From assembly GCA_976551045.1 (NCBI GenBank), contig CDPCPM010000010.1, forward strand, positions 20,956,001 through 21,020,000: a stretch of DNA of 64,000 nt, given 5' to 3'. A model generated the notes under the pieces. That model did not search any database. It was not told where the DNA came from and saw nothing but the letters and a program-made list of their open reading frames with translations. Shown here one piece after another: positions 14,366-49,797 of this stretch (position 1 is its first letter; every line of letters starts with the position of its first letter). Made by a program: the position numbers and the translations under genes. This DNA is from Glaucostegus cemiculus. Taxonomy: Eukaryota.

Positions 14366-15299
14366 GTATCATATAAAAAATGAAAATTTTACAAATGTCA
14401 AAGACAGTATAATCAAGTAGATGATTGTAAGTAGATGTTGTAATGTAACTATTAGAAGACACTTTAATGCTCCCTGTAACAAATAAAAGTTTAGCAAACC
14501 ATCCAATATGGAAGGAAGCCTTTTGGTCCATTATATCTGTTCAAGATCTAGTTATACTATATTTAATGTATGAAATCAAGACAAGTCACTTATTAATTGC
14601 AAAGTCAACTACTTGCATTACAGCCACAATCATTGATTTGGAACACAAGAATAAAATCCTTTACAATAATGATTCAGTTTACACTTATGATTCAGTTCTA
14701 AATTTGTTAAAATTGAATCATATTGCTGGGGAAAAAAATCATTAAGCAATCACAGAAAAGGAGAGGAACTAATGACAACCTTGTGGTAGTATTCTTATAT
14801 TTACAATATTACACTAATCTCACAAAGTTTAATCTTTGAAGGACAAATTTCACACAGGAAGAATGAAACACCAGTGTATAGCACATTAACCAGACCAACA
14901 AAAGCAAAAGCTTTAGTAACCTTTTCCCATTAAAAGAAAACAAACTTGTGCTGTCCAGAGTTATATTACCCATAAAATAAAATTAGCTATTGCGGATGGA
15001 TTAGTTATACAAGGTATTTTAATATAGAGTCGAAGTATTGTTTCCAAGGTTTAATAAATTCTACACAACGTTTTGGTTTTCACAACAAAACTCCTTAATT
15101 CAACAGGTTTGCAAAACACTGATTGCTCAAGGAAACAAACAAAGCTCCCGCGCTTGGAGGGCTATTTTTCGTTTGGATTGTGCAACTACATTTTGTAAAT
15201 AGCACTTACAGTGGGTGCTCCATTCGCAAAATACTGATTACACGAAGGGTCAATCTGCATGCATCTCTACCCCCCACCCCCCTCAAATCGTAAGGTTTT

Positions 15300-16250
15300 T
15301 TTTGTCGGCACGTTCAAAAATAAAAGCCCGAGGGACACTCCCTTTAAACGGCCATCGCGTGGTGTCGAAAGTAGGGAATCTCTCTTCAAAAGTGCGATTA
15401 CTGATTGTTTTGAAACAAACAGAAATTACCTGCTGGCTTCTTTCTGACGGTTTTTTCATCAAAACCTGCTTGAAATGCAGGTCCACGTAAGAAGTCATTA
15501 TCCCGGAGGAGTGAGCCGCGGGCTCCCTCACCACATGAAACCAAAGTCTCCGGGAGCGGCGAGACTCGGCTCCCAATGAAAGAGGAGAGAGGAGGTGGGG
15601 GGGAGAAAAAGGGGGAGATCTCACTGGGAAAGCCGCCTTCAATGGAGTTTGTGTTAAATATCCTCCCGGCCGCCGCCTCTCCGCTCCGGCGACTGTCAAA
15701 GTTCACCAGCCGAGCAAGGGACCGGGGCACAATCCAGATTGCGGCCCCCGCTGCCGCACATTTCTAACGGCGACCGACTCCCCCCCCTCCCCCCGGAGCC
15801 ACGGTTCACCTTCCGATTCCCACGCGTCGGGAGCAGAGAAAAAACCCGCCCGCTTCTGCCTGTGACCTTCGGGGAAAGTTTCTGCCCGACGACTTCACTC
15901 CACGGGGCGGGCTACATAACCTGGCGAGGGGCGTGCACCAGGCCCGCCGCGGCTCCTCCACACGCTCGCCCTCCGCCGCCCTGTCAAACTCCGGCGACAA
16001 ACTTCAGGCGCCGCCAACACGCGCAATGCGCACTCCGGGACTTCGCCTCCTGTCAATCAAGCTGCAAGCGATGGCGGTGCCCGCCACCACCTCGCACCGC
16101 ACTCTCTGGTCAACTAACTCTCTCTCTCTCTGTGCACTTTTTATTTCCTCTCTCTCTCTGCCCTTCCCGGCCTGCCGTGGCAGTTATGTGCAGGAGTGTG
16201 TGCTCCACGCCTATTAGACTGCTTGCTGCCCTGTATCAGCGGTAGTAAAA
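15300..16250. promoter_or_regulatory. CpG-island promoter of RAPGEF6
   Basis: Sharp GC/CpG enrichment. GC box GGGGCGGG at ~15904, NRF1-like GCGCAATGCGCA at 16021-16032, PBX/PREP-MEIS decamer TGATTGACAG (minus) at 16050-16059, and further CTGTCA sites at ~15693 and ~15981. Confidence 0.85.
15430..15498 (-). CDS. RAPGEF6: RAPGEF6 (PDZ-GEF2) first coding exon, MTSYVDLHFKQVLMKKPSERSQQ
   Basis: ATG at 15498, 23 codons, CAG|gtaatt donor. Resembles the RAPGEF2/6 N-terminus (MASYVDNSFRQAVMKNPPERTPQ). Assigned to RAPGEF6 from the conserved FNIP1-RAPGEF6 tandem synteny. Exon 2 was not recognised in 1-15429. Confidence 0.85.
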
Positions 16251-19415: not shown

Positions 19416-20389
19416 TACAAGAATAAAGATTGGATTTTAGAGCATCCTGGAATACTGTCTTCTGGTCTGGTTCCCCTGCTTAAGTAAGGGAGTGCATGGA
19501 AGATTTACTGATAACCAAGCTTCAAAACCTGGACTTCTGTACCTCCCTTTGCAGTTGGATCGTCTGTAGGGAGATTGCAGTTGGTGCAGATCGGTAATAA
19601 CATCTCCTCACTGACTGTCAACACAAGTGCACCTCAAGGATGCATACTCAGCTCACTGCTAAGGAAGTGGAGGAGGGGGGGGAGTGGGCAAACTGGGCTA
19701 CTACTCTGTAGAGTTAAGGGAGGAGTGGTAATCTCATTAAAACATTCAAATTCTTATGGGGCTTGACAGGGCAGGTAGAGACAATGTTTCAAGTGGTACT
19801 GGTTTCTAGAGAACCAGGAGACTGAATGAGAAGAATCTACTGCAGAGTGTAGTGAATCTTTGGAATTCTGCAATGCATGCAAATTATGGGGACTCAGCTG
19901 CTGAACATTTTCAGCTCTGATATCTTGAGTTTAATGCAGGAGAGTGATGCTGAGATAAAAGGTCAGCCATGTTCTGATTGACAGAGCAGGAATGAGGGGA
20001 CCACTCCTATTTCACATGCTCTTATTTTTATAGTACTGATCATTGACTGCCCTTGCCCCTCTAAAAAAGACACTTTGTAATGTGGTCATGAACCATTTTA
20101 ATGCAAAATTGGGCAAGATCTATAATAAGTTGACAATTTGCTACTCCGTTTTATTCAGGACATGTTCACTTAATTACTTAATAGCACTCTTCAAAGGGTT
20201 AAAGCATAAATAGCATGTACACTTCACACAGGCACACCAAGCAGAGTTAATGACTCTAGCCAGTGTTTAACTTTGCACATCTACTATAAATAGAACACTT
20301 GCTGATAGCAGTAGTTTCAGTGAGCAGCATGTGTTGCAATTAACATAAGTCATGCATGTCTGCATCATGTCATGTATTTAGTATAAACC

Positions 20390-20935
20390 ATTAGTTGGGT
20401 TTATTAAAACTTTGGTTAGGCTACATTTGGAGTATTGGGTGCAGTTCTGATCGCTGCATTACAGGAAGGCTTAGGTGAGGATGCAGAAGAGGTTCACCAT
20501 GATGTGTGGATGAGAGAGGAGAGATTGGACAAACTTGCATTGTTTTCTCTGGAGTATTAGAGGCTGAAGGGTAACATGATTTTTTTTTTAAACTATGCTA
20601 TTATGAGAGGCATAGATAGGGTCTTACTTCCAGGATGAAAATGCCAAATACTGGAGGACATAGCTTTAAGGTGAATAGGGGAAAGTTTAAAGGAGGGTTA
20701 CAAGCAAGTTTTTTTTTAGAGGGTGGTAGGTGTCCAGAACATGCTGCTAGGGGAAGTGGTGAAAGCAGGTGCGAAAGCAACATTTAAGAGGCATTTAGAC
20801 AGACACCTGAACAGGCAGGGAATGGAGGGATACACACTATATGCGGGCAGATGTGCAGTTTTAATTGGTGTCATAATCAGCATAAACATCATGGGCCAAA
20901 GGTCCTGTTGCTGTTTTATATTGTGTGTTCTGTTA
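20390..20935 (+). mobile_element. CR1/HER1-type LINE 3' fragment
   Basis: LVRLHLEYWVQF and FKRHLDRHLNRQGMEGY. Confidence 0.8.
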
Positions 20936-22695
20936 ATGGACTTTGACATGATTAGTAGTCTGTAATTCTTTTGTTAACAAAGAAATATTTACAGAAAAAA
21001 ACTAGATAGGGGAAATAAAAACTGAGTATTATGACTTCAGCAGAGACCTGTAGAGATCATGGAATATGATGAAATCTGCATTTACCTCACTCTTCTGGGA
21101 CTCCTCCTGCTACTTGCTCATATTGCTACAGTTGCCTAGGAGAATGTGTGTGCAAAGTTGGCCCATTTTTACCTGGTACTTTCGGAGCTGGGTGAAAACA
21201 TCAATGCAGATTGGAAAGAATTTTGCCACCTTGAGCCAGCACCCACCAAGAATGATTAAAATATAATGGAAGCAAGCTTACAACTTCACCTGTGATTTTT
21301 CCAACAATATCCCTGACAGGGCAATCTATTACTCAAAGTGCAAATTTCTTCCACTTTACATGTTATTAAATGAAATTTGTTGAACAATTTTAAAGCATGA
21401 GACATAAGCATAACAGGCCATCTGGCCCATCAAACCTACTCCAATTTTCTGCCATTTTTCATGCTGCTAATTGTACATAATTAGGAGCCTTGTTGCCACC
21501 TTATTTCAGTCCTCTTGCATTCTTCTCAACCAGCAAAAGAGGTTTTTGTTTTGTAGTACAAGCTATATTTAAATGTTACTAACTGAAGTGAAAATGTAAT
21601 ACATTAATTCAAACTCCCAAAGTATATTTTCATTTTTTCCCAAAACATGATTTAGGGATCAACCTCAACTGATTTTATTGGATTAAATTAACTCATTGTG
21701 AAGTATTTAGCCATAGAGATCAATGCCTGGTGGTTGCTGTTAGCTAAACTCAGCAGGAGCAGTAGCAGTAGTTTTAAGGAAATAAAACGATGCCCCTCTT
21801 CACAAGGAATCACTTTTCAGTAATATCTGCTGAAATGTGCTTATCTATGGAACCATGGGGGAAAAGAGAGTTTGACTATAATACCCACTAACATCTGAGC
21901 TTGTGCTTTAAAACTGACCACGTGAAAAAGTTGAAAAAGACCTTGTAGAGAGAACAGGCTAGACAAAAACAATTAGTTCAGCAGTTTAAAAAGCTGCAGC
22001 TACATTCAGTACAGTTTTTCAACACATATCAGTATTTCACACCTGATACTGATTTCACCAATTTAGGCTGACAATTCTATTCCTATTTACACCTCCTCTA
22101 TCCACCCATAACACCCATCCTTTGTTTACTCAGTTACACCTATCCTTTGTTTCTTTACTTGTCCTATTACCACCCACTTTTTCCATGCACCATCATCATT
22201 GTTATTTAATGATCCTGCTATTTCTACTTGCATCTTAAAACTTGCTTTTAATGTTCTGACTTGTCAGTTAATTACTTTACTTCATCTTAACTTGGCTTCT
22301 CTGCAAATGGTGCCCGATTTGCTGAATATTTCCAGCATTTTCTTTTTGCATTTTGGATTTCCAGTTTCCACTGCATCTATTTGATAATGCTGACATTGAA
22401 CAGAGAACCACAGAAAGGCCATGGATGTGGTGGTTTTTGTCAATCTTGATGGCAGTGCCTCATTTGCACTAATCCAAAAGCAAAATATAGCAGATGCTGG
22501 AAATTTGAACTGAAATGGAGGAAGCTGTATATACTCACTAGAATAGGTAGCATCTGTGTAGATCTTGTATATCTTGTAGCTGCATCTACTGCCTGGCAGA
22601 CAGTAACAGGAGATCACAGTCAGGGAACCATGTGGCATACATTCATGATATAAACAATAATATGGGCTAAAGATTGTTTTAGATAGTTTTGATGC

Positions 22696-25100
22696 GTCAG
22701 ATGCTGGTCCACTAACATTACGGCCCTCACGAAGAAAGCTCAGAAACGCCTCTACTTCCTGCGGAGACTGAGGAAAGCGAACTCCCATCCCTCCGTTATG
22801 AAAACCTTCTATAGAGGGACCATTGAGAGCATCCTAACCCAATGTATCACTGTTTGGTTTGGAAGCTGCTCAGCTGCTGGGCGGAAGTCCCTCCAGAGGA
22901 TAGTTAGGGCTGCGGAGAGGATCATAGGTGTCTCGCTTCCATCCCTCGCAGACATATACAAAGACCGTTGTGTGAGGAAGACCAAAAGCATAATGGCCGA
23001 CCCTTCTCACCCCTCCCATCACCTCTTTACAATTTTGCCATCGGGGAGGAGGCTTAAATGTATCAGGGCAAGAACGACCAGGCTGAACAATAGCTTCTTT
23101 CCGCAAGCCATCAGAACTGCAAACTCTCTCATCCCTCCATCTTCCTTTGTTAACACTAAGAGATACTAGGTGCACAGAAATGCCCCAGCACTTTAAATGC
23201 CTGCCACCAGCCCGTTCACTTTAATAACTATTTATTTATTTACCGGCCATTTTTAATTTAGTCTGCGTATTAATTTAATTTTAACTTCCGTAGTTTTTAA
23301 TGTTTAATGTTTTTTAATGTTTATTCTGTTAAGTGTGTCTGTGTGTCTCTGTTGGTTGTTATTTAATGGGACGAGCACCTGAGGAGGACGGTATCTCGCT
23401 CCTATGCATACTATGTATGTATATGGTTGTGACAATAAAACTGATTCTGATTCTGAATTCCCACTCTGGACATTCTTATTCTCATGACAGTTCCGAATCA
23501 GTTTTATTGTCACTTCCATATACACATTCAGCATGCATGGGAGCGAAATACCATACTCCATAGATCAAGGTGCTGGTCACATTAAAAACAATGAGAGATG
23601 CAAAGACAGAAAGAATCAGAATCAGTTTTATTGTCACAACCATATACATACATAGTATGCATAGGAGCGAGATAGCATCCTCCTCAGGTGCTCGTCCCAT
23701 TAAATAACAAACAGCAGAGACACACAGACACACTGAACAAAAAAAACATTAAAAACTACAGAAGTTTAAATTAAATAAAATACGGTAGGTTAAATTAAAT
23801 ATGGCCAGTAATTAAATAAATAGTTATTAAAGTGAGCGGGCTGGTGGCAGGCATTTAAAGTGCTGGTGCATTTCTGTGCACCTAGCATCTCTTAGTGTTA
23901 ACAAGGAAGATGGAGACATTAACTACATTAGAACTGCAAAAATTAAAAGAGACTCAAATAAAAACATTCTTAGAATGAATGTACTGATGCAGCAGTCATT
24001 GGACATTTAAAGTGCTGGTGCATTTTTATACACATCCTTTGGTGTTGGCTGGAGGGATGAAGGAGTTCATGGTTCTGATTGCTTGTGTGGGGGGGGGAGC
24101 TATTGCACAGGCTGGTAGTCCTTGCCAGGATGCACTGGAGCCTTCTTCTGGATGGCAAGAGTACATAGGTGATAGGAGGGGTGAGAAGGGTCAGACATTA
24201 TGTTTGTGGCCTTTCTGACACATCGGTCCATATATATGTCTGCAATAGAGGGTAGAGAGACACCTATAATCTTCTCTGCAGCTCTCACTATTCTCTGCAG
24301 GGACTTCTATCCAGCAGCTGAGCAGCTCCCATACAAGATGGTGATGCAGTGTGTCAGGGTGCTCTCAATGTTTCCTCCGTAGAACATTTTCATGAGAGAT
24401 CCTGCAGATGCTGGAATCTGAAGCAATACACAAAAAGGGCTGGAGGAACTCAGCAGGTCAGACAGCATCCATGGAGGGAAATAAACAGTTGCCTTTTCGG
24501 GCCGAGACCCTTCATCGGGGCAGATTTCCTAATTCCTGTTTTACTTCCTCTTTCATCCTTTAAATTGATCTTTAGAATTTGCTGCTTTGTTCTGCTGCAA
24601 TACCCCTGTGTCCTCCACTGCCAGATTTTGTTGGATAATAATACTCCTGTGAATTTCAGAACCTTGGGACAGTTTACTACATTAAATGTGCAACATAACT
24701 TGAATTGTTGTGACATTTGTAGTTTTTTTTTTGCAAGCCAATTTCTAAGTTCAACACACACTAGTTCAGGATCAAATAGTTTATAATCCCATTTGAGTCA
24801 CTAGTTTGTATTATTTCAAATGATTTTAATGATTACCTGGCCTTCTAAGTGAGAGTAGATATCTGTGGCTCGAAATTCATTCCCATCCACTATGCTCAAT
24901 CAGAATCAGAATCAGAATCAGTTTTATTGTCACAACCATATACATACATGGTACGCATAGGAGCGAGATACCGTCCTCCTCAGGAACACGTCTCATAGAA
25001 AAGAATAACATAACAACCAACAGAGAGACACATACACACTTGGCAGAATACACAGTACAAAACATTACTCATTAGTTCTTACATAAATAGTTCTTACAAT
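22696..25100. mobile_element. Cluster of Rex1-type 3' ends: + 22696-23460; - 23490-23600; - 23612-23915; - 23960-24392; - 24896-25100; pseudo-LTR at 24398-24520
   Basis: ORF 22798..23169 is near-identical to 49180-49550. Shared 3'UTR ending GTGACAATAAAACTGATTCTGATTCTG. Confidence 0.88.
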
Positions 25101-25539
25101 GCACTGTATGGTCTCACCAGGGCATTCCATTCTGCCTACTATTCATTCTTTGATTTGTTTTTAGCATTAATATAACTTTAGTATGCATTTAGTGGTACTG
25201 AATGGAATTGAATTTCTCAGGCAGGTGAATGATTCACTATTATTTCTATCAAAAGTATTCCCCATGTGACATTTTTGTTATTCACTAAATTGTAATTAAT
25301 TATGATCCCTGAAGCTAGAAAAGTCACATGTCATGTGTCAGTGATAAATCTGATTCTGAAGTAGTAAAAGAAATTGCCCTTTGTGTATAGATGAGTGATA
25401 GAATCTGGGGGTGGATTGTTGGGAATATAGGGTAAATGAAATGACCACAGTGGGATTAGTGTGAAATGGGTGCTTGATTGTCAGCATGGATTTGAAAGGC
25501 ACAAGGGCCTGTTTCCAAGTTGCATCTCTCTGTGACCAT

Positions 25540-25820
25540 CATTGATTACTTATTCATTACATCAAGCACTAATTGCATTTCCTCTTACTGAGCAACTTGT
25601 GGGGTAGTTTATCCTGTCTGGGACTGTATTATTGATTTACATGTGTTCTTGAGTGTTTGAATGTAAGACTTCCTTGACCTTGTTAACTCTGGTCTGAGCC
25701 CTTTTGACCTAATTAAGCTTGCACGCAAGCATCCAGACTTGTGTCAGCTCAAATTCTTATTCACTGGGCTGCTATGATAATAAAGTGACTTAACCATTTT
25801 CTAGCATCTCCTTACTAACA
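25540..25820 (-). repeat. 3' LTR remnant of the provirus
   Basis: Shares TATTCATTACATCA, ATGTAAGACTT, TTAACTCTGGTCTGAG, TTAAGCTTG and GCTCAAAT with the right LTR. Ends ...CTAACA (TG on minus). Left part is lost next to a SINE tail at ~25380-25535. Confidence 0.65.
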
Positions 25821-26729
25821 CATGTTGTTTTGTACAGTTTGTCCCTGTTTGCAGCTTGATTTTCCAGAATATTAATTTTAACCTACTTTTTAAATATTTG
25901 TTAGTCACATGTACATCAAAACACACAGAAAATGTGTCCTTTTGTGTTTAACAACCAATGCCGTCTGAGAATGTGCTGGGGGTAACCCACAAGTGTTCCC
26001 TCCTGTCTTGTACCTGGCACACTAGCCTTGGCAAATCCTGAGTTCCCTGTCCTTTGGTGTTAATCAGGCACATGGATTGAGGGACACGGGCTCATCCAAC
26101 AATCGCAGATTTGATACTAATAACAACCTACTCTTCCTTGTTTTGCCTCTTATACACAGTGTGTACTGCAATTCCACAGCTGACAGCTAAAATTAACTAA
26201 CACTACCAAGACATGGGAAATAATTTGGATCTAGGGATGGATCTCACTACCCCCAAATTCCACAGTTATTCTCATGAAGTTTTAGATCATGTCCCATATT
26301 CTTTAAATCCATCAGGTTTTATTTCAAAATATGGTATCACTGTCAGGACAGTCCCCATGTTCCATGGCCATTTGGGTTATGGCAATTTACCCTTGCAGAA
26401 TTTGCAAACTACTCCACAAAGTTTTGAGGTGCAGAATAAGATTTGCTCTTGTGTAACTTGCAGGGAAGAAAAAGTAAATAAATAAAGACAATTTTGTTGA
26501 TAGTGATGATGTGGCTTTGCATTATGGAGAACTGCAATACAACCTGTTTTCTAGGAACACAGCCCCCTCTTGATTTGGGAATCATCAGTACTACCCTGCC
26601 TGAAATCTCACTTTTTTTTGTTAGTGTCCCAGCGGCTAGGGAATAGGATGCCCTACATGATCTTCATACTGATCCAAATTCTTGCTCAATTGATCAGTGG
26701 TGTTTATATTGACCTGCTTTCTAAATTCT

Positions 26730-27300
26730 ATGTGTTGGTAAATTGGTTTATTATTATCACATGTACTCCCATGCCATCCATACAGATAGTTTCATCACAT
26801 CAGTATATTGAGGTAATACAAGGAATAACAAAAACAATGCAAAATAAAGTGTTACAGTTGCAGAAAAAGTGCAGGCACACAAGGTGCAAGGTCATAACAA
26901 GGTAGGTTGTGAGGTCAAGAGTCCATCTTAACACACTAGGGAACTGTGCAATAGTCTCGTAGCAGTGGGATAGAAACTGTCCATGAGTCTGGTATGTGCT
27001 TTCAGGCTTTTGTATATTCTGCCCGATTTGTGGGGTGGGTGGTTGGGGAGGAAGAAAGAATATCTGAGATGGGGGAGGGCCTTTGATTATGTTTGCTGCT
27101 TTATCAAGGCTACAGGAGGTAAAGACCGAGTCTATGGAGGGGAGGCTGGTTTCCATGATGTGCTGAGCTGTGTCCTCAACTCTTTGCAGTTTCTTGTGGT
27201 CTCAGACAAAGCAGTTGCCATACCAAGCCATGATGCATATGGATAGGATGCTTTCTGTGGTGCATCAATAAAAGAATTGATGAGGGTCAAAGGGTATATG
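26730..27300 (-). mobile_element. Rex1-type LINE 3' end inserted in the provirus env region
   Basis: ETSLPSIDSVFTSCSLDKAANIIK and tail TACATGTGATAATAATAAACC. Confidence 0.8.
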
Positions 27301-27982
27301 CCAATCCATTCAGTCTGTCCCAAAGTAATAGGGACCCATGGTTTAAAGCAAATATTTGGCGTTGTAAATTTGCGTGAGGACTGCATTTTGGTTCTAACCT
27401 TCTAGTGGCACAGTACTATCATGAGCAAGTACAAAGGTGATCAGTTTGGGATACTTTAAACACATTCCTCTGTCTTACAAGACCATATTCATCCTTCATA
27501 TCTTCACCCAATGGTGTGTGCATATAGTTACACAGCTCCTTTGATGACTGTTTATGGGCAGTCTATAGTACTACCATTTTTCTTAATGGCATGATGTCCA
27601 AAGAATAATATTTGAAATGGGTTTCCCTTCAGAGCAGGCCACTGTTTTCCACCTGATACAGGCGATATTGTTGAGCTCCTGATTACACCACTAAGGGAAT
27701 AAGAACGATCTTCACATCAGGGTAGTACTTGCTACCCAGTCTTGAGAATCCCTTTGAGAATGTAGAAATCGACTAAACTTTTGTTGTGTGGGAATATAGA
27801 GGCATGAATTATTGATCTATTTGGGCACCTCATCTTGTTGGATCTGAGCCAGGTTACATCCCAGTGTCCTATTGCCTATTGACCATAAGCATGGCACAGA
27901 ATTCACTTATTCCTGCTTTGTTCTGTTCTAAATCCCTATTATTCAGTAATTTAGTAGCCTTCACATTGCCTTCTACTATTCA

Positions 27983-29280
27983 AGTTAACCTGCCTTAATG
28001 ACTACTGCCTGTTGGTTCTGACATTCCCCTACCATGAAGTGCTTCGCGAGGCTGGTCACAACACACATTAACTCCAGATAACCATGACCCACTGCAACTC
28101 ACCTACCACCGATAAAGGTCTACAGTCGATGCCATCTCCTTGGCCCTACACCAATCTCTAGAATATCTGGACAGTAAAGACACCTACATTAGAGTATTGT
28201 TAATTGACTACAGCACTACCTTCAATACTATAATTCCAAGCAAACTCATCACCAAACTCCAAAACCTGGGACTCAACACCTCCCTTTGCAACTGGATCCT
28301 TGACTTCCTGACCAACAGAGCCGAGCAATCAGTAAGGATAGGCAGCAGCAACACCACCACCACGATTATTCTCAACACAGTGGTGCCCCATAAAGCTGCG
28401 TCCTCAGCCCCCTACTCCCTGTACACTCAGGACTGCATGGCCAGGTTCTTAATTCCATCTACAAGTTTGCAAATGATACCACTGCATTGGATAGTATCTC
28501 AAATAATGATGAGTCAGAGTACAGGAAGAAGATAGAGAGGTTAGTAACATGGTGTCATAACAACCTTTCCCTCAATGTCAGCAAAACAAAAGAGCTGGTC
28601 ATTGACTTCAGGAAGGGGGAGAGGGGTTTGGTGCACATGCTCCTACCTACATTAATAGTGATGAGGTTGAGAGCTCCAAGTTCCTAGGAGTGAACATCAC
28701 CAACAGCCTGTCCTGGTACAACCACATAGATGCCATAGCTAAGAAAGTTCACCAGCGCCTCTACTTCCTCAGGAGGCTAAAGAAATTTGGCATATCTCCA
28801 TCAATCCTTGCCAAATTTTATCAGTGCACCATAGAAAGCATCCTATCTGGATTTATCACAGCTTGGTATGGCAACTGCTCTGCCTGGGACCACAAGAAAC
28901 TGTAAGGAGTTGTGGACATGGCTCAGCACATTATGGAAACCAGCCTCCATGGACTCTGCCTATACTTCTTGCTCATTGGGCAGAAAATGCAAAAGCTTGA
29001 AACCGTGCACTACCAGCCTCAAGGACAGCTTCTATCTTGCTGTTGTAAGACTATTGAACGGTTAACTGGTATGAGAAAATGGACTCTTGACCTCACATTC
29101 TCTCTCATTATGACCTTGAACCTTGCTAACTGCACTGCACTTTCCCCGTAGCTGTGACACTTTATTCTGCTATTGTTATACCTTGTACTACCTCAATGTT
29201 CCATGTAATGAATCTATCTCTATGAACTGTATGCAAGATGAGATTTTCATTGTAGCTCAGTACATGTGACAATAATATTC
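27983..29280 (+). mobile_element. Rex1-type LINE (RT to tail) inserted in the provirus
   Basis: ORFs 28140, 28487 and 28690 ([19 protein letters not shown]; LNVSKTKELVIDFRK; QRLYFLRRLKKFG). Confidence 0.88.
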
Positions 29281-30795
29281 CAATTTTTGCTTTGTTCTGA
29301 TGCAGGGTTTTAACCTGAAATGTCAACGATTCCTTTCCTCCCACAGATGCTGCTCGACCTGCTGAATTCTTCCAGCAGATTGTTACAACTAATGGGTGTA
29401 TGATTAATTTTAGGCCCATGACAGTTCGAATGTGAGGTCTGTGGTTATGTTTATCTTAGTCAACAATGTGGGTTCCTCTGCTGTTGTCAGAGCAGGTGTA
29501 GTAACGGCACTTGTATGTGTTCATCTGTTTGTGCCAAGATGTACACTCCCACTACTTGGCCTTTTACCTGTTGATTCTTTATGCATTTCTTTACACTGGT
29601 GATTTTAGCCATTCCATGTGGTACTGAACTCCAGTTTATACACATCAAATGTTTACTGCCCATTTTCATCCTCTTGACATCCATAGCTCATTATTCTTTA
29701 AAAGACGTACAATCTGCATTCTATCGTTCTCTGTTCTATGGTTCTTGCTGTGGGAATTGTTTTGATCTCCAGGTTCATCAGGATCAGCACCATCATGGTA
29801 GCCATACTAAGAAAGGGCACAATTCTGGTCCACAGCAGTCTATGAAACCAAGTCGATGCACATACAGTACACTGTACATTTTCTCCCTAGACTGAGCTAG
29901 CTTCTTAGTCCTGTGGATCAGTTAAACAGTTTTAATAGCAATCAATGTTTCCTTCCTTTTTTTTATATCCACACCATCACATGTAATGCTGGTCAATATG
30001 CCCTCACAGACATGCGCACAAAGGGGTATTTTGGGTCACCTACCCTTTCCCTATTTTGGACATTGATTCACTGATGCATTTATTCTTTATCCTGCTCTTG
30101 GATATCTTATGCCCTCTCCTTTCTCAGCTCGTATTGTTGGTTATCTAGTTGTCCCTCCTAATACAGCATTTTACTGTTCCCATTTCCTTGCCACCCATCA
30201 ATATTTACCACTACATGTGTAGAACACCCTGTTATTCATTCAAATGAAGCCTGTCAGGTAGGGTGCTCCAAGCAGATGTATGAATGCACAGGGAAGAATA
30301 TCGACCCATCATTGTTCCATCAGTGCTGTCACCTTTGCCAAACTGGTTTTTAACATCCTGTTCATCCACTCGATCATACCTGAGCTCTGGCTGAAAGAAT
30401 CTGAAATCTCTGCCTAACTCCTAACAATTTACACACCTGCCTTGTAAAGTGTGTACCCTGGTCTGAATCCACCTCTGGAGGAAGTCCCCAGTAAGGGATT
30501 GTATCAAATACATATATTTGGGCTTATGTCCTGGTGCCACACAGGGAAATGCTTCCACTCACCTATCATTACTAAACATTATTTCTTGTCCCTCCTGTAC
30601 TGTGAGGGTTGCAGTCTATCTGTAAGTTCTGTTACAGGTCTTTGGATATTAGTTGGCATGTCATTTTGACCTTGATTGGCTTTCCAAGGTTATACTGGCT
30701 ACATATTATGCATCGCTGGCAAAGTTTAACCAAATCTCTTCCCTTCCCATTCCACCACCAATCCCTCATCAATCTGTCATACTTTGCTTGATGGA

Positions 30796-31920
30796 GGCAC
30801 AAGACACTGCAGATACTGGAATCTGAAGCAAAAATTTGCTGGAAGAACTCAGCGGGTCAGGCAGCATCTGCAGAGGGAAATGGACAGTTGACAGTTTGGG
30901 TTGAGATGCTTCATCTGGCATACACTAAAATGAAGCATCTTGACCCGAAATGTCCCTTGGTTGATCTTGAGTCTTAGGCATATTGCCTGTGATTGTGCTG
31001 CTTTAGGGTTTACTTTGAATCCTGCTTTTTTTAATACCTACAAGCTTACAGTAGACAGTCTACATCTTCATCTTCTGAGGTTAAGTCTTGTCCTTCTGGT
31101 GCTTGGCTTATTACAGAGTGGAATATATTAGCCCTGTTATGAAATCCTGTGAAACTCTGGTCCAAATGTGTTGATTCTCTCTTGGCGTGAATGCAATTTT
31201 TTTTGTGTGCTGTGATCCAATGGCATGCACCAGAACTTGTTGGCAATGTCCAGGAGGGTCTCCAATATTGAGCTACAAGAAAGACTGCAGATGCTGAAAA
31301 TCTGGAGTAACACAAAGTGCCGGAGGAACTCAGTGGGTCAGGCTGCATCTATGGAGGGAAATGGACAGTCATCATTTCTGGTCGAGACCCTTCATCAGAT
31401 CACTATTGAGTTACTTTAAGGCCTGTGTAGTCAACCATCAATCGGTATGATCTGATTGTTTTTTTGTTGTGGAAGAAGCAAAGGGCTGAACAAGATGGAA
31501 TCTGATGGGAGAGGACAGTAGACCATTGAACAGAGGGAATAAAGGGAGGGAGGGTGGTGTGGGTGAAGGGCTGGTCATGGGGGAGGGGAAAGTGAAGGGG
31601 TCAGAGGGATAAGGGTCCCTTTTTGCCTCTTCCACCTGTCACCTAGTTTCTCACATCATTCCCACTTCTTCCCTCCCACCCACCTACCTATCTACCCCCC
31701 CACTTGGATTCACCTATCACCTGTCAGCTCGTGCTCCTCCCCCTCCCCGCACCCTTTTATTCTGGCTTCTGCCCTCTTTCTTTCCAGTCCTGATGAAGGA
31801 TCTGAGCCTGAAATGTTGACTGTTCATTTCCCTCCATAGTTGCTGCCTGACCTGAGTTCCTCCAGCATTTTGTGTGTGTTGCTCCAGCTTTCCAGCATCT
31901 GCAGACTCTCTTGTGTCTCC
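30796..31920. mobile_element. Several Penelope pseudo-LTR fragments inserted in the provirus pol (30796-30955; 31275-31400 minus; 31470-31620 minus joined to 31621-31920 plus)
   Basis: Recurrent GCAGATGCTGGAA..GGAACTCAGC.GGTCAGGCAGCATC motif and CTGATGA..GAAA cores. Confidence 0.75.
31785..31822 (+). ncRNA. Minimal hammerhead ribozyme motif (second copy with intact core)
   Basis: CAGTC-CTGATGA-aggatctgagcct-GAAA-TGTT-GACTG. Confidence 0.6.
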
Positions 31921-32699
31921 ATCTTTTACTAGTGCCACCTTGGTGGTGTTTTCATATGGGGATGGATAATTATATTCCTTGTCTTTGTCGTGGTTATAAG
32001 CCTTGCTGATTGTATACCAATCATTAGGACCATAGGATCCTGGGGACAATTGGTACTGGCTAAGAGGAAGGCATTGGTACACCTTTTGGACAAACCCCAA
32101 CATCTTGACCACCGGTAATCCAGCTTTCTCTTCTGTTCCTTCTCCTGCCATTCCTGTTATTTACCTATTGGCTCATCTAATGCTACCTCTCTTCTTTCTT
32201 GTTCTGTTTCTGTTTTTTTCTCAAGATGGTCATTGATCCCTCTCAAATTCTAGTTTTTCTGTGGCTGTTCTTGTTTCTGCTGTTAATTTGTTGGAGGTAC
32301 ACCACTTTCTGACCTTGCTCTGAAGTGGGCACACTCTTGCAACTTAATTTGGTTTGGACTGTTTAGTGTCAGGAGTCTACCTCGTTCTGAGACCCTCCCA
32401 AAGTGAGCAAGTCACTATCGACTTGTACCAAGGAACATCTTGCTGTGCTGGCTTCAACCGGACTGAGGTTCAACTCTGGCCCATAAGTTTGTTGATCCCA
32501 GGGCAGCAGACCACGGTGATTCTGGCTCTTCAACTATGCATGGTAATTTAAAAGGTACTCACAAGGTGGCTCAGCCAGCACTCTTCCAATTCCTCAAAGA
32601 GATCCCATCCCTCTCTCCATTTTGTTGTGGAGTATTTTGCATCAACACCCAACTTGTGGTCTTTTGATCAAACCTTGAGCAGTCTTTACATTACACCAG

Positions 32700-33120
32700 T
32701 GGCAGGATGATTTTTTTCCTGAATTCTGAGAAACTGCTTCCCGAAAATACAGGTCACAAGTCCTTTTGTATATTGTCCTCTAGCATAACATCAGCAGTTA
32801 TTCAGAATGCTATTTGTTCATCATCAATCGCTATTCATTACATCACAAGCAGGAATTATATTTCATCTTATCTGGCAACTCATGGTGTAATTTATTCTCT
32901 CTGGAACTATATCATTTTGATGTGCACATGTCCTTGGGTTGTTTGCATGTAAGACTTTAACTCTGGTCTGAGTCCTTTGAGCTTGTTAAGCTTGTGCCCA
33001 GTCATCTAGAACAGACGCATTGCTATGTTGGCTCAAATCCTTATCTCTTGGCAAGCTGTGATAATTATCTCTTCAATGTTTATGTTGTTTTAACGATTTC
33101 CCATCATCTCTTTCCTGACG
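32700..33120 (-). repeat. 5' LTR of the provirus (~421 bp)
   Basis: Termini are short inverted repeats (plus TGGCAGGA...TCCTGACG; minus (T>C)GTCAGGA...TCCTGCCA). PBS-like TGGTG starts 1 nt inside at 32698. Similar to 25540-25820. Confidence 0.7.
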
Positions 33121-33254
33121 TGGATACAGTAACTCACTTCAGTCAGGGATTGAAAATTGACAATATGTTGACATTTGTAAATTTCATAACTAAATATAAT
33201 GGGCCTGTCCAAGTGAATAAAGACATTGCTCTTTATTCATAAAATATGGGATAT

Positions 33255-45205: not shown

Positions 45206-47036
45206 TGAATCAATACTCCTTTCCGAACAAGGAACATAAAAGCAGCAAGGATACAGAATGTACTTGGAGGTGGGGGAAAGGATTACATCAGAGAGATGGG
45301 ATTAGGCTGTTCTGTCATTCAGGATGATTATGACCAACCACCTATATCAATGTCATAAGCATGCTCTCCCCTTACACCTATGCCTTTCATGCTGAGAAAT
45401 TAAGCTCCTATATAAGTGGTTCTAGCTCTGTAGGTGTGAGAGTCGCTCAGAAGCATCACCACTAACCAAGTTAGCTATAAAGTTGGGTCTGCAGCAAGTG
45501 CTCATTAAACCAACATTAGAAAGAACCTTACTTAACCATGTCCTCACCAATCGATCTACTGCAGTTGCATCAGTCTAGTATAGAGCAAGGAGTGACCACT
45601 GTACCATTCTAGTGAAGAGGGTCACTCCTTCACATGCAGTACCACTGTCTTTTCTAATGGGAAAGATTTAATCTATCCAGGCATCTGAGTTCTGAGGACC
45701 ATCAGACAAATCATATTCCACCACAACTTGTAACCTCACTTATCATTACTGATAAGCCATGGAGTCAACTCTGGTTCAATGAGTGTGGAAGGACACTACA
45801 GGAGCAGCATCAAGCATAACCCAAGATCTCAATTTGACAAATCAGCAACAGAATATAGGCATGCTAAACATTAAGAGCAGTGTACAGGTGTCACCATCAA
45901 AAAGAGAGCATACCCATAACATTCAATAACCATAACTCTTTGACCTTTCCCATAAAGTCTGCTCCTATCCCTCACCAAGGCTGTGGTAAAGTATTTAGTT
46001 GGGGGAGGGGGAATTATGATGCTACTATGCAGGAACTTGAGAGCGTAAATTGGGAACAGATGTTCTTGGGGAAGTGCACAATGGAAATGTGGAGGTTGTT
46101 CAGGGAGTACTTGCATGGGGTTTTGGATAGGTTTGTCCCATTGAGGCAGGGTAAGGATGGTAGAGTGAAGGAACTATGGTTGACAAGAGACATAGAATAC
46201 CTTGTGAAGAGGAAGAAAGAAGCTTACCTCAGATTTAGAAAGCATGGATCAGACAGGGCTCTGGAGAGTTACAAGGTAGCCAGAAGGGAGCTTAAGAATG
46301 GACTTAGGAGAGCTGGAAGGGGAGATGAGAAGGCCTTGGTAAGTAGGATTAAGGACCACCCCTCCCCCCCTGCCCCAAGGCATTTTACACATACATGAAG
46401 AAAAGGAGGATAACTCAAGTGAGGGTAGGACCGATCAGGGATAAAAGAGGAAACGTGCCAGGAGTCTGAAGAGGTAGGGCAGGTCCTTAATGAATACTTT
46501 GCTTCAGTATTCACCAGGGAGAGAGACCTTGACGTTGTGAGAATGCCGTACAACAGGCTGATATATTAGGGCACGTCAACGTGAGGAAAGGGGATGTGGA
46601 AGAGTGGGTTAGTAAGTTTGCTGATGACACAAAGGTTGGTAGTGTTGTGGATAGTGTAGAAAGTTGCTGTAGGTTACAACAGGACACTGATAGGATGCAG
46701 ATCTGGGCTGAGAAGTGGCAGATGGAGTTCAACCTGGAAAAGTACGAAGTGATACACTTTGGAAGATTGAATTTGAAGCCAGAGTTCAAGGTTATTGGCA
46801 GGACTCTTAGCAATGTGGAGGAATAGAGGGATCTTGGGGTCCACGTCCATTGATCCCTCAAGGTTGCCATGCAGGTCGATAGGGTTGTTAGGAAGGCGTA
46901 TGGTCTGTTGATCTTCATGAGTTGGGGTATTGAGTTCAAGAGCCGTGAGGTAATGTTGCAGCTCTACAGAACTCTGGTTAGACTACATTTGGAATATTGT
47001 GTTCAGTTCTGGTCACCTCACTATAGGAAGGATGTG

Positions 47037-48694
47037 ATAGAAGGCAGAGGGTGACAGAGGAACTGAAGTGGATTGACATTAGGAAAGAAATGGTGATGGG
47101 TAGACTAATGGGACTGAAGGATGACAAATCCCCAGGCCCAGATGGTCTGCATCCCAGGGTACTAAAGGAGGTGGCTCTGGAAATTGTGGATGCATTGGTG
47201 ATCATTTTCCGATGTTCCTTAGAGTCGGGGTCAGTTCCTGAGGATTGGAGAAAGGCTAATGTTATTCCACTTTTTAAGAAAGGAGGGAGGGATAAAACGG
47301 GGAACTATCGTCCAGTCAGCCTGACATCTGTGGTGGGGAAGTTGCTAGAGTCTATTATTAAGGATGAAGTAACGACATATTTGGAAAGCAATGATAGGAT
47401 TGGGTCGAGTCAACATGGATTTACCAGGGGCAAATCATGCTTGACTAATCTACTGGAGTTCTTTGAGGATGTAATGAGGAAAACAGACGGGGGTGAGTTG
47501 GTGGATGTGGTGTACCTCGACTTTCAGAAGGCATTTGATAAGGTGTCGCACAGGAGATTGGTGGGTAAAATTAGGGCTCATGGAATTGGGGGGAGGGTAT
47601 TATCATAGATAGAAAACTGGTTGGCTGCTAGGAAACAAAGGGTAGGGGTGAATGGATGTTTCTCAGAATGGCTGGCCGTGACTAGTGGGGTGCCACAGGG
47701 CTCGGTGCTGGGACCGCAGCTGTTTACGATCTATGTTAATGATTTAGATGAAGGCATTGAGAATAACATTAGCAAGTTTGCTGATGATACAAAGTTGGGT
47801 GGCAGTGCGACATGTGTAGAGGATGTTAGGAGGATTCAAGGTGACTTGGATAGGTTGGGTGAGTGGGCAGATACTTGGCAGATGAAGTTTAATGTGGATA
47901 AGTGTGAGGTTATCCACTTTGGGAGCAGGAACAGGAAGGCGGATTATTATCTGAATGGTGTGGAGTTAGGTAAGGGGGAAATACAAAGGGATCTAGGAGT
48001 CCTTGTTCATTAGTCACTGAAAGTGAATGAGCAAGTACGGCAGGCAGTGATGAAGGCTAATGGAATGTTGGTCTATATTACATGGGGAATTGAGTACAAA
48101 AGCAAAGAGATTCTTTTGCATTTGTACAGGGCCCTGGTGAGACCACTCCTGGAGTATTGTGTACAGTTTTGGTCTCCAGGGTTAAGGAAGGATATCTTGG
48201 CTATAGAGGGCGTGCAGCGTAGGTTTACGAGGTTAATTCCGGGGATGTCGGGACTGTCTTGTGCTGAGAGATTGGAGAGACTGGGATTGTACACGCTGGA
48301 ATTGAGAAGATTGAGAGGGGATCTGATTGAAACATACAAGATTATTAAGGGATTGGACAAGATGGAGTCAGGAAATATGTTCCAGATGTTGGGGAAGTCC
48401 AGGACCAGAGGGCATGATTTAAGAATAAGGGGTAGGCCATTTAGGACAGAGATGAGGAAAAACTACTTCTCCCAGAGGGTTGTGAATTTGTGGAATGCAC
48501 TGCCTCGGAAGGCAGTGGAGGCCAATTCTCTGGATACTTTCAAGAAGGAGCTGGATAGGTTTCTTGTGGATGAGGGAATCAAGGGATATGGGGACAAAGC
48601 AGGAACAGGATATTGATTGTTGATGATCAGCCATGATCTCAAAATGGCGGTGCAGACTCGAAGGGCCGAATGGTCTACTTCTGCACCTATTGTC
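47037..48694 (+). mobile_element. Young 5'-truncated CR1/HER1 LINE with RT domain
   Basis: ORFs 47051, 47621 and 48023 are one frame broken only by two TAG stops. KSPGPDG, NYRPVSLTS, YLDFQKAFDKV, SGVPQGSVLGP and KFADDTKLGG. (TATTGTC)n tail. Confidence 0.95.
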
Positions 48695-49797
48695 AGTCAA
48701 AATTGGTGAAAACATCTCAAGCACCATCACACTGAGCACTGGCTCCCCTCAGGGTTGTGTGCTCAGTCCGCTCCTGTTCACCTTGTTGACCCACGACTGT
48801 GAGGCCAGATTCAGCTCCAACCGCATTGTTAAATTTGCCGATGACACGACAGTGGTGGGTCTTGTTACGAATGACGATGAGTCGGACTATAGAGAGGAGG
48901 TGAACCAACTAGCCGTGTGGTGCCATGACAACAACCTCTCCTTGAATGTGGATAAAACCAAGGAGATGATAGTGGATTTTAGGAGGGGTCATCGTGTGCA
49001 CACCCCGCTGACCATCAACGGGTCTGCTGTGGAACAAGTACGCAGCACCAACTTCCTGGGGGTGCACATCACCGACGACCTGACCTGGTCCACTAACATT
49101 ACGGCCCTCACGAAGAAGGCTCAGAAACGCCTCTACTTCCTGCAGAGACTGAGGAAAGCGTACCCACACCCCACAGTCATGAAATCCTTCTACAGGGGGA
49201 CCATTGAGAGCATCCTAACTCAATGTATCTCTGTTTGGTTTGGAAGCTGCTCAGCTGCTGGGCGGAAGTCCCTCCAGAAGATAGTTAAGGCTGCGGAGTG
49301 GATCATAGGTGTCTCGCTTCCATCCCTCGCAGACATATACAAAGACCGTTGTGTGAGGAAGACCAAAAGCATAATGGCCGACCCCTCTCACCCCTCCCAC
49401 CACCTCTTCACAATTTTGCCATCAGGGAGGAGGCTTAAATGTATCAGGGCAAGAACGTCCAGGCTGAACAATAGCTTCTTTCCGCAAGCCATAAGAACTG
49501 CAAACTCTCTCATCCCTCCATCTTCCTTTGTTAACACTAGGAGATGCTAGGTGCACAGAAATGCACCAGCACTTTAAATGCCCGACACCAGCCCGTTCAC
49601 TTTAAGATCTATTTATGTAAGAACTAATGGGTAATGTTTTGTACTGTGTATTCTGCCAAGTGTGTATGTGTCTCTCTGTTGGTTGTTATGTTATTCTTTT
49701 TTTTATGAGACGTGTTCCTGTGGAGGACGGTATCTCGCTCCTATGCGTACCATGTATGTATATGGTTGTGACAATAAAAACTGAGTCTGATTCTGAT
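48695..49797 (+). mobile_element. Young 5'-truncated Rex1-type LINE with uninterrupted RT-to-stop frame
   Basis: [44 protein letters not shown]. Flanked by TATTGTC at 48688-48694 and 49798-49804. Confidence 0.95.

What the first reader, a model, noticed from the sequence alone, without database searches (positions are those of the whole stretch)
25540..33120. Hidden ancient env-bearing provirus with spuma/lokiretrovirus-like pol between RAPGEF6 and FNIP1
Seen: two diverged direct repeats ~7 kb apart; the right one has short inverted ends and an adjacent PBS-like TGGTG. Between them on the minus strand, scattered across frames and split by at least six later insertions, are colinear remnants: RT (LLDIANKFWCMPL ~31220-31260; GFHNRANIFH..DVDCLL ~31050-31155; KKAGFKVNPK ~31005-31035) and integrase (CQRCIIC ~30700; WGLPPEVDSDQGTHFT ~30440-30490; QSSGMIEWMNRMLK ~30345-30390). 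Established: LD[LI]ANxFW and SDQG are foamy-virus-like rather than gamma/beta-retrovirus signatures, and lokiretroviruses are a sister lineage of retroviruses that I recall from lampreys, bony fishes, amphibians and reptiles. Inference: this may be a chondrichthyan member of that group or another deep-branching lineage. It is almost invisible in the ORF track.
Basis: partly seen in the sequence, partly recalled or inferred. Interest (0 to 1): 0.85.

Follow-up and report, generated by a model that had tools for sequence, protein, structure and literature searches.

The report
Dead shark-type retrovirus, not a lokiretrovirus
This is a long-dead, heavily broken retrovirus copy lying between two host genes and shared with related species; its enzyme remnants group with deep-branching ordinary retroviruses rather than lokiretroviruses, and its sister copies carry an envelope gene likely related to that of snakehead fish retrovirus and, more distantly, to measles-type fusion proteins.

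Summary
The provirus is real: two LTRs (72% over 249 nt, E 1e-27), colinear RT and integrase remnants far above shuffles, and at least eight nested repeats. Two details fail: the 5' LTR runs on to about 32627, so the TGGTG at 32694-32698 is inside it and is no primer site, and env survives detectably only as one short membrane-proximal motif. It is not a lokiretrovirus: RT and IN trees reject that grouping (p-AU 0.004, 0.0017, 0.0009). It belongs to a distinct deep clade of canonical, class III/SnRV-grade retroviruses, with 53 env matches in this genome and env relatives in horn shark. Family Env resembles snakehead retrovirus Env (weak but repeatable), and by eye loki Env and paramyxovirus F; my folds were too poor to prove the F fold. 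Three other species carry the same insertion. Clade III ERVs are known to be common in cartilaginous fish, and this scan reached the same reading twice on other genomes. Interest is modest; the family Env, not this copy, is the prize.

The parts
32627..33120 (-). 5' LTR, about 490 bp; begins at the family TG-type start (here CG) and ends in CA
   Evidence: six other copies at 68-77%; five stop matching at about 32627
32602..32620 (-). Candidate primer-binding site (TGG-starting, a few bases after the LTR end); tRNA not assigned
   Evidence: position; not tested against tRNA genes
31926..32600 (-). Leader/gag-position DNA, too short for gag+protease and not recognisable
   Evidence: 7 of 7 gag/PR queries at chance; present in three other species
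31465..31925 (.). Nested host repeat
   Evidence: hit by up to 15 of 40 fetched loci
30996..31447 (-). Broken reverse transcriptase remnant, interrupted by a repeat at about 31265-31405; catalytic motif degenerate
   Evidence: 83.5 bits vs shuffle max 27; trees
30800..30930 (.). Nested repeat at the place where RT thumb, tether and RNase H are deleted
   Evidence: spacing of RT and IN
30261..30799 (-). Broken integrase: part of the zinc finger and the catalytic core
   Evidence: (Integrase_H2C2 E 0.036), (130.8 bits vs 20.5), tree
29390..30250 (-). Internal DNA at IN-tail/env-start position, unassigned; two pieces match same-LTR copy L066
   Evidence: 71% and 76% DNA matches; at chance as protein
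27985..29385 (+). Nested non-LTR retrotransposon fragment plus a short repeat
   Evidence: (RVT_1 E 7.5e-4, plus strand)
27312..27984 (-). Env-position DNA; 65% match to same-LTR copy L066, protein not recognisable
   Evidence: E 8e-16; single copy at DNA level; chance
26740..27310 (-). Nested LINE-type 3' fragment
26330..26600 (.). Further medium-copy repeat
   Evidence: contig depth 70-360 against about 15 beside it
26201..26262 (-). Env remnant: tryptophan-rich membrane-proximal motif and start of the transmembrane helix, as in family Env
   Evidence: the matching place in L066 also hits the profile (E 0.002)
25890..26000 (.). Very high-copy nested repeat
25822..25870 (-). A-rich purine tract at the polypurine-tract position, shared with three to four other 3'-LTR copies
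25534..25821 (-). 3' LTR, cut short by a repeat at about 25335-25536; the missing 190 bp were not found in 20000-26100
   Evidence: (K2P 0.28 to the 5' LTR over 279 sites)

Best explanation
This is a dead, internally deleted provirus of a deep-branching canonical retrovirus family, likely of class III/snakehead-retrovirus grade, that integrated once between two host genes before several present species split and has likely decayed neutrally since. Shown: LTR pair, colinear RT-IN order, one env motif, nested repeats, the same insertion in three other species, placement outside loki and Gypsy. Inferred: the parent was an infectious virus with gag, PR, RT, tether, RNase H, IN and an Env (all present in sister copies L040, L042, L034); it entered cells by a furin-cleaved class I fusion protein of the SnRV/loki/paramyxovirus-F type, reverse-transcribed from a tRNA primer, and integrated with TG...CA ends. 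This copy makes no intact protein and has no shown function.
For: RT tree: window pieces with P0001, P0002, L042 at 99/91 (37 rows) and 96/94 (27 rows), inside a canonical-retrovirus clade at 95/98 and 100/99. IN tree: with P0002, P0010, L034 at 98/97. Score ranking on the RT remnant: P0002 83.5, P0001 74.5, P0003 56.5, P0004 54, P0005 47.5, SnRV 46.5, epsilon-like 41, foamy 31.5/28, gamma 30, gypsy 26, loki 24.5. Family+SnRV not rejected on RT (p 0.073) or RT+tether (p 0.35). Sister copies hit both RT_RNaseH (tether, E 0.002) and RNase_H (E 3e-12). Family Env vs SnRV Env: 0 of 200 and 1 of 200 shuffles for an N-half and a C-half piece, colinear; mean z 2.3 over 10 pieces against 0.9 (F), 0.4 (foamy), 0.5 (gamma/delta). 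Contigs of organisms B, C, D cross the 5' LTR/flank junction at 91-93%. Clade III RTs are the majority in Chondrichthyes (2843 hits in 6 genomes; PMC11089739 passages).
Against: The family is never sister to SnRV in any best tree; the base of the canonical clade is a polytomy, and on IN family+SnRV gave p 0.024 (though that constraint wrongly left P0010 out). SnRV IN scores only 35 bits on the IN remnant, below loki (57-59). Env-to-SnRV similarity is weak: 4 of 6 pieces not significant, profile tests 18 and 10 of 300 shuffles, hhalign probability 6.8%. Window RT fills only 33% of columns. No named ERV-L, fish foamy-like ERV or cartilaginous-fish foamy sequence was in the trees. LTR-LTR distance (0.28) is no smaller than distances to other copies (0.21-0.34) and no target-site duplication was seen, so one integration is inferred from anatomy.
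Confidence: 0.75

Rival explanations
1. A chondrichthyan lokiretrovirus.
For: Family Env matches the order and several motifs of Loki-Bsp Env by eye: basic cleavage site then fusion peptide, a 'V.NVG..Q' strand, an 'L..C....HW.CP...CGL' block. Dual RNase H. Loki RTs also carry DIANGFW and some loki INs SDQGTHF.
Against: Family+loki rejected on RT (p 0.004), IN (0.0017), RT+tether (0.0009); loki lowest on the RT remnant; diagnostic RT motif differs. The loki rows were two unnamed proteins labelled by that motif.
Confidence: 0.04
2. A basal member of the foamy-like (clade Tu) retroviruses, whose Env is also F-related.
For: Best solved-structure matches of sister RT L042 are foamy Pol (E 1e-20); family+foamy not rejected on RT (p 0.056); foamy Env shares a structural core with F (PMC11468914 passage).
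Against: PDB holds no SnRV-grade RT, so that ranking is biased; foamy scores 28-31.5 bits on the RT remnant; IN test p 0.025 (biased constraint); family Env is about half the length of foamy Env and shows no similarity to it (z 0.4).
Confidence: 0.1
3. A recombinant: class III-like pol that captured env from a lokiretrovirus or a paramyxo-like virus independently of SnRV.
For: Env and pol trees are often incongruent in anamniotes (bioRxiv 10.1101/2021.11.23.469661, abstract and parts 1-2); CmiERV lineage I has a similar RT grade but a gamma-type Env with ISD and CX6CC (read by eye from supplement); P0158 vs six F proteins mean z 3.9.
Against: N-half family pieces resemble SnRV Env more than F (z 3.9-4.8 vs 0.5-1.4), which fits shared descent with SnRV.
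Confidence: 0.15
4. Not one provirus but pieces of two integrations, or the env end belongs to another element.
For: LTR pair as diverged as unrelated copies; no target-site duplication; gag and most of env unrecognisable.
Against: Same strand, canonical order LTR-RT-IN-env motif-purine tract-LTR; copy L066 with the same LTR matches five internal stretches in the same order up to its 3' LTR.
Confidence: 0.06

Closest known systems
Snakehead retrovirus (SnRV), unclassified Orthoretrovirinae; clade Huo / class III of Xu et al. 2018
   Same: RT motif type, dual RNase H, RT-IN order; family Env weakly but repeatably similar to SnRV Env in both halves (L115, 10,688-nt contig whose RT equals the SnRV row; length as in PMC12193657)
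   Different: Not sister in any best tree; integrase distant (35 bits); family Env lacks SnRV's long N-terminal part as far as seen; no accessory ORFs seen; primer site does not match the one after the L115 LTR
CmiERV lineage I of elephant shark (Han 2015, PMC4422223)
   Same: Chondrichthyan ERV that clusters with SnRV; similar RT grade (P0005 matches its RT by eye)
   Different: P0005/P0074 form a separate clade; CmiERV-I has a gamma-type Env with ISD and CX6CC, this family does not
Lokiretroviruses (Wang and Han 2021, PMC7947760)
   Same: Tether plus RNase H; Env with basic cleavage site, fusion peptide, coiled coil, TM and, by eye, shared motif blocks
   Different: RT and IN reject the grouping; loki reported in 0 of 6 chondrichthyan genomes; no smc gene seen
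Foamy viruses (Spumaretrovirinae)
   Same: Nearest solved RT; Env known to share a core with paramyxo/pneumovirus F
   Different: Low RT, IN and Env scores; separate 100/100 clade; sister copy L046-type and SnRV-type gag features not foamy-like were not tested
Unnamed public proteins P0001, P0002, P0010 (pol) and Heterodontus francisci 'uncharacterized' P0158, P0159 (env)
   Same: Closest relatives found: 44-56% identity to window pieces; 40-42% to family Env
   Different: Intact or near-intact reading frames; their genomic context could not be fetched (contig look-up closed)

Membership tests
Retroviridae (canonical) | RT inside the canonical retrovirus clade, outside Metaviridae | tested here: met
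   95/98; 100/99
Retroviridae (canonical) | LTR-gag-pol(PR,RT,tether,RH,IN)-env-LTR | tested here: met
   full order in sister copies L040/L042/L034; this copy keeps LTRs, RT, IN, one env motif
Retroviridae (canonical) | tRNA primer site just after the 5' LTR | tested here: inconclusive
Lokiretroviruses | RT in the loki clade, sister to canonical retroviruses | tested here: not met
   p-AU 0.004, 0.0009; loki rows labelled by motif
Lokiretroviruses | Loki-type integrase | tested here: not met
   p-AU 0.0017 (constraint left P0010 out); 57-59 vs 131 bits
Lokiretroviruses | Env similar to Mononegavirales F (PF00523) | tested here: inconclusive
   PF00523: no match over cut-off in the genome or in 23 pieces; hhalign to 34 F proteins E 0.04-0.33, and the foamy-vs-F positive control also failed (E 0.15); P0158 z 3.9; by-eye match to loki Env
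Lokiretroviruses | Dual RNase H | tested here: met
   sister copies; shared with all retroviruses, deleted in this copy
Spumaretrovirinae / clade Tu | RT and IN within foamy clade | tested here: not met
   foamy 100/100 clade excludes it; sister position not rejected on RT (p 0.056); fish foamy-like ERVs not in the trees
Spumaretrovirinae / clade Tu | About 1000-aa Env with leader peptide; accessory genes | tested here: not met
   family env spans about 1.6-2 kb in L040/L078; z 0.4 to foamy Env
SnRV clade / clade Huo (class III) | Pol clusters with SnRV | tested here: inconclusive
   not in best trees; p 0.073, 0.35 on RT, 0.024 on IN
SnRV clade / clade Huo (class III) | SnRV-type Env (no ISD/CX6CC) | tested here: inconclusive
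   best of four Env classes, mean z 2.3; 2 of 6 pieces significant; profile test not significant
Gamma/epsilon ERVs (class I) | RT with gamma/epsilon; gamma-type Env | tested here: not met
   p-AU 0.046; 100/98 clade excludes it; no ISD/CX6CC seen in family Env pieces
Metaviridae (Gypsy) | RT within Gypsy, single RNase H | tested here: not met

The most novel reading that the evidence does not exclude
Sharks and rays harbour an undescribed deep clade of canonical retroviruses whose Env is homologous to SnRV Env, to lokiretrovirus Env and to paramyxovirus F. With foamy Env already F-like, that would make an F-type fusogen the ancestral retroviral envelope, shared by loki and canonical retroviruses, against the published preference for independent Env origins (PMC9040795), and would make gamma- and beta-type Env the later replacements.
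Probability: 0.4. Interest if true: 0.6.

Novelty: new member of a known kind. Interest (0 to 1): 0.33.

Why it matters
This copy is an ordinary dead insertion, useful as a dated marker: it is fixed in at least four species that differ by 7-9% while its LTRs differ by 28%, so it is roughly three to four times older than their split. The family matters more. Wang and Han 2022 argued that canonical and loki Env share no similarity and arose separately (passages). A canonical clade with a loki/SnRV/F-like Env makes that claim directly testable with intact relatives such as P0158. My searches found no paper stating that SnRV-grade Env is F-like, but the foamy-F link is published, the library lacks most subscription journals, and two earlier unchecked notes of this scan say the same.

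Tried and rejected
DNA searches of the own genome with IN and env-position DNA found only the window. Two early queries were in the wrong frame and are void; the L042 row in the first tree was also out of frame, so that tree was replaced. Protein search with the broken IN found nothing. AlphaFold models of family Env were poor (mean pLDDT 45.5 and 38.0); Foldseek gave 0 matches at E<=0.001 in BFVD and PDB, with pneumovirus F rows only at E 0.28 and 2.9-4.1; the wide structural search was busy. Env profiles hit nothing in PDB sequences or among 138 viral ORFs at useful E. ESM Atlas gave viral glycoprotein clusters at 0.85-0.89, below its bar and not F. Global hhalign was uninformative. Related-locus scans with P0003 and P0158 found nothing. 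No RNA holder was listed; in two RNA runs of organism C (18% and 24% read) no reads lay on provirus-specific bins 25560-25834 and 26000-26329, a weak sign of silence only. Rest of the 3' LTR and a target-site duplication not found. The J Virol letter on cartilaginous-fish foamy ERVs is not held.
Full report
Observation. The two repeats align at 72% over 249 nt, E 1e-27; over 279 aligned sites K2P is 0.28. A search of the 2.85-Gb own genome with the right repeat gave 8 matches of 8 candidates: the two window LTRs and six others at 68-77%. A TGG-starting candidate primer site follows at 32620-32602; I did not assign its tRNA. The 3' LTR is cut by a repeat at about 25335-25536, and a purine tract shared with other 3'-LTR copies precedes it. 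All quoted RT and IN motifs are in place. Frameshift-aware scoring with repeats masked gave 83.5 bits for RT and 130.8 for IN against shuffle maxima of 27 and 20.5. Tether and RNase H are deleted and gag/PR are unrecognisable (7 of 7 queries at chance). At least eight repeats are nested in it. It lies on the same strand as its neighbours, about 8 kb past the last FNIP_C exon and 10 kb before a RAPGEF-like first exon (label recalled; which paralogues these are I did not test).

The family. The IN piece matched 104 places among 150 scored of 423 candidates; I fetched 40 ten-kb stretches. Sister copies show the whole plan: L040 has gag, protease, RT, tether, RNase H, IN and env; L042 has RT in one frame. 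An env piece of L040 matched 53 of 78 candidates. All copies examined are broken. The env has a basic cleavage site followed by a glycine-rich fusion peptide, long helices, a cysteine-rich beta region, a tryptophan-rich membrane-proximal motif and a TM helix, and no ISD or CX6CC. Public relatives: P0001 and P0002 for pol, P0009/P0010 for IN, and two Heterodontus francisci proteins for env, which is why I infer a cartilaginous-fish host. In the window only the membrane-proximal env motif scores (26201-26262); same-LTR copy L066 matches five internal stretches in order and hits the env profile at the same motif. So the env of this copy is probably of the family type, but most of it cannot be read.

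Placement. References came from an IMG/VR scan (32 retrovirus genomes; foamy, gamma, delta labels inferred from size and RT motifs, L115 identified as SnRV from its RT and its 10,688-nt length) and from unnamed proteins, of which P0095 and P0105 carry the loki RT motif of the Wang and Han supplement. Window RT pieces group with P0001, P0002 and L042 (99/91; 96/94 after dropping 10 of 37 rows) inside canonical retroviruses, with loki and Gypsy outside. AU tests on RT: with loki p 0.004, gamma/epsilon 0.046, foamy 0.056, SnRV 0.073; on RT+tether of intact relatives: loki 0.0009, SnRV 0.35. On IN the window groups with P0002, P0010, L034 (98/97); loki 0.0017, foamy 0.025, SnRV 0.024, all biased because P0010 was left out of the constraint. 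The deep forks are open, so 'SnRV grade' is a best fit and not a shown clade. It is not Han's CmiERV lineage I: that RT matches P0005 by eye, a separate clade, and its Env is gamma-type (supplement part 1).

Env type. Against SnRV Env, one N-half and one C-half piece beat 200 and 199 of 200 shuffles, colinearly; four other pieces did not. Over ten pieces mean z was 2.3 for SnRV, 0.9 for F, 0.4 for foamy, 0.5 for gamma/delta; P0158 alone averaged z 3.9 on six F proteins; profile tests were not significant. SnRV Env against 34 F proteins gave E 0.008 over 150 columns, while the known homologues foamy Env and F gave only E 0.15, so these tools barely see this relation. By eye the family Env follows the printed Loki-Bsp Env block by block; I could not score that. 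Folds failed. F-type Env is thus likely, not shown.

Age and state. Contigs of organisms B, C and D cover the internal DNA and LTR and cross the LTR/flank junction by 70-109 bases at 91-93% identity (3 of 4 runs laid; the fourth held one 146-base piece); organism C also holds the 3' LTR with the same truncating repeat and the env end. With the two rates quoted by Han 2015 the LTR distance gives 64 to 640 million years; the upper value is impossible, so only 'tens to a few hundred million years, three to four times the species split' is safe. The pair is as diverged as unrelated copies (0.21-0.34), which fits one old burst.

Literature seen. PMC7947760: parts 1-3 of 4 and supplement passages (loki in 0 of 6 chondrichthyan genomes; the supplement is held cut). 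PMC4422223: part 1 of 2 and supplement part 1. PMC6001957, PMC9040795, PMC12440569, PMC11468914, PMC12583693, PMC11089739, PMC11521997, PMC12193657, PMC12287698, PMC13709493 and bioRxiv 2023.10.26.564294, 2024.03.17.585361: keyword passages only. bioRxiv 2021.11.23.469661: parts 1-2 of 6; bioRxiv supplements are closed and could hold related Env sets. SnRV-related ERVs in a chimaera and abundant clade III RTs in Chondrichthyes are published; foamy Env is published as F-related. Searches returned no paper that calls SnRV-grade Env F-like. Two earlier unchecked notes of this scan reach the same reading on other genomes; I saw them after forming mine and do not count them as support.

Verdict. 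A real, old, dead provirus of a deep canonical retrovirus clade of cartilaginous fish, not a lokiretrovirus. New member of a known kind; interest 0.33, carried mainly by the family's Env.

Noticed in passing
L050, L051, L052 (G000 C12, C288, C54): A second decayed ERV family in this genome whose RT and IN group with Astyanax Gag-Pol P0004 (97/96 and 100/99), apart from gamma/epsilon and from the family studied; L050 has its own LTR pair at 80%.
   Followed up: partly
P0158, P0159 (Heterodontus francisci): Annotated 'uncharacterized' proteins that are the C-half of this family's Env behind an unrelated-looking 70-85 residue start; could be gene-model artefacts or expressed env remnants.
   Followed up: partly
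L115:6131-9532: SnRV Env aligns to paramyxovirus F over 150 columns (E 0.008, hhalign), better than foamy Env does; no paper found saying so.
   Followed up: partly
G000 C115:5011123 and 5029348; C140:8959854, C34:585480 and 5921107; C13:12010511 and 12066153: Env matches with identical scores in pairs or triplets, probably segmental duplications or assembly repeats of old copies, not recent activity.
   Followed up: no
window 15283-16250: GC-rich island with a RAPGEF-like first coding exon on the minus strand (label recalled), 10 kb downstream of the proviral 3' LTR on the same strand; no RNA sign that the LTR acts as a promoter.
   Followed up: partly
window 47027-49550: Two near-intact non-LTR reverse transcriptase stretches back to back inside an FNIP intron, on the plus strand.
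   Followed up: no
window 22798-24393: Nested inverted repeat arms (233, 114 and 159 nt at 80-95%) just left of the provirus, likely MITE-like or head-to-head repeat copies.
   Followed up: no
window 33226-33250: Organisms B and C carry the flanking repeat in the opposite orientation or form right after the shared flank, a lineage-specific change beside the provirus.
   Followed up: no
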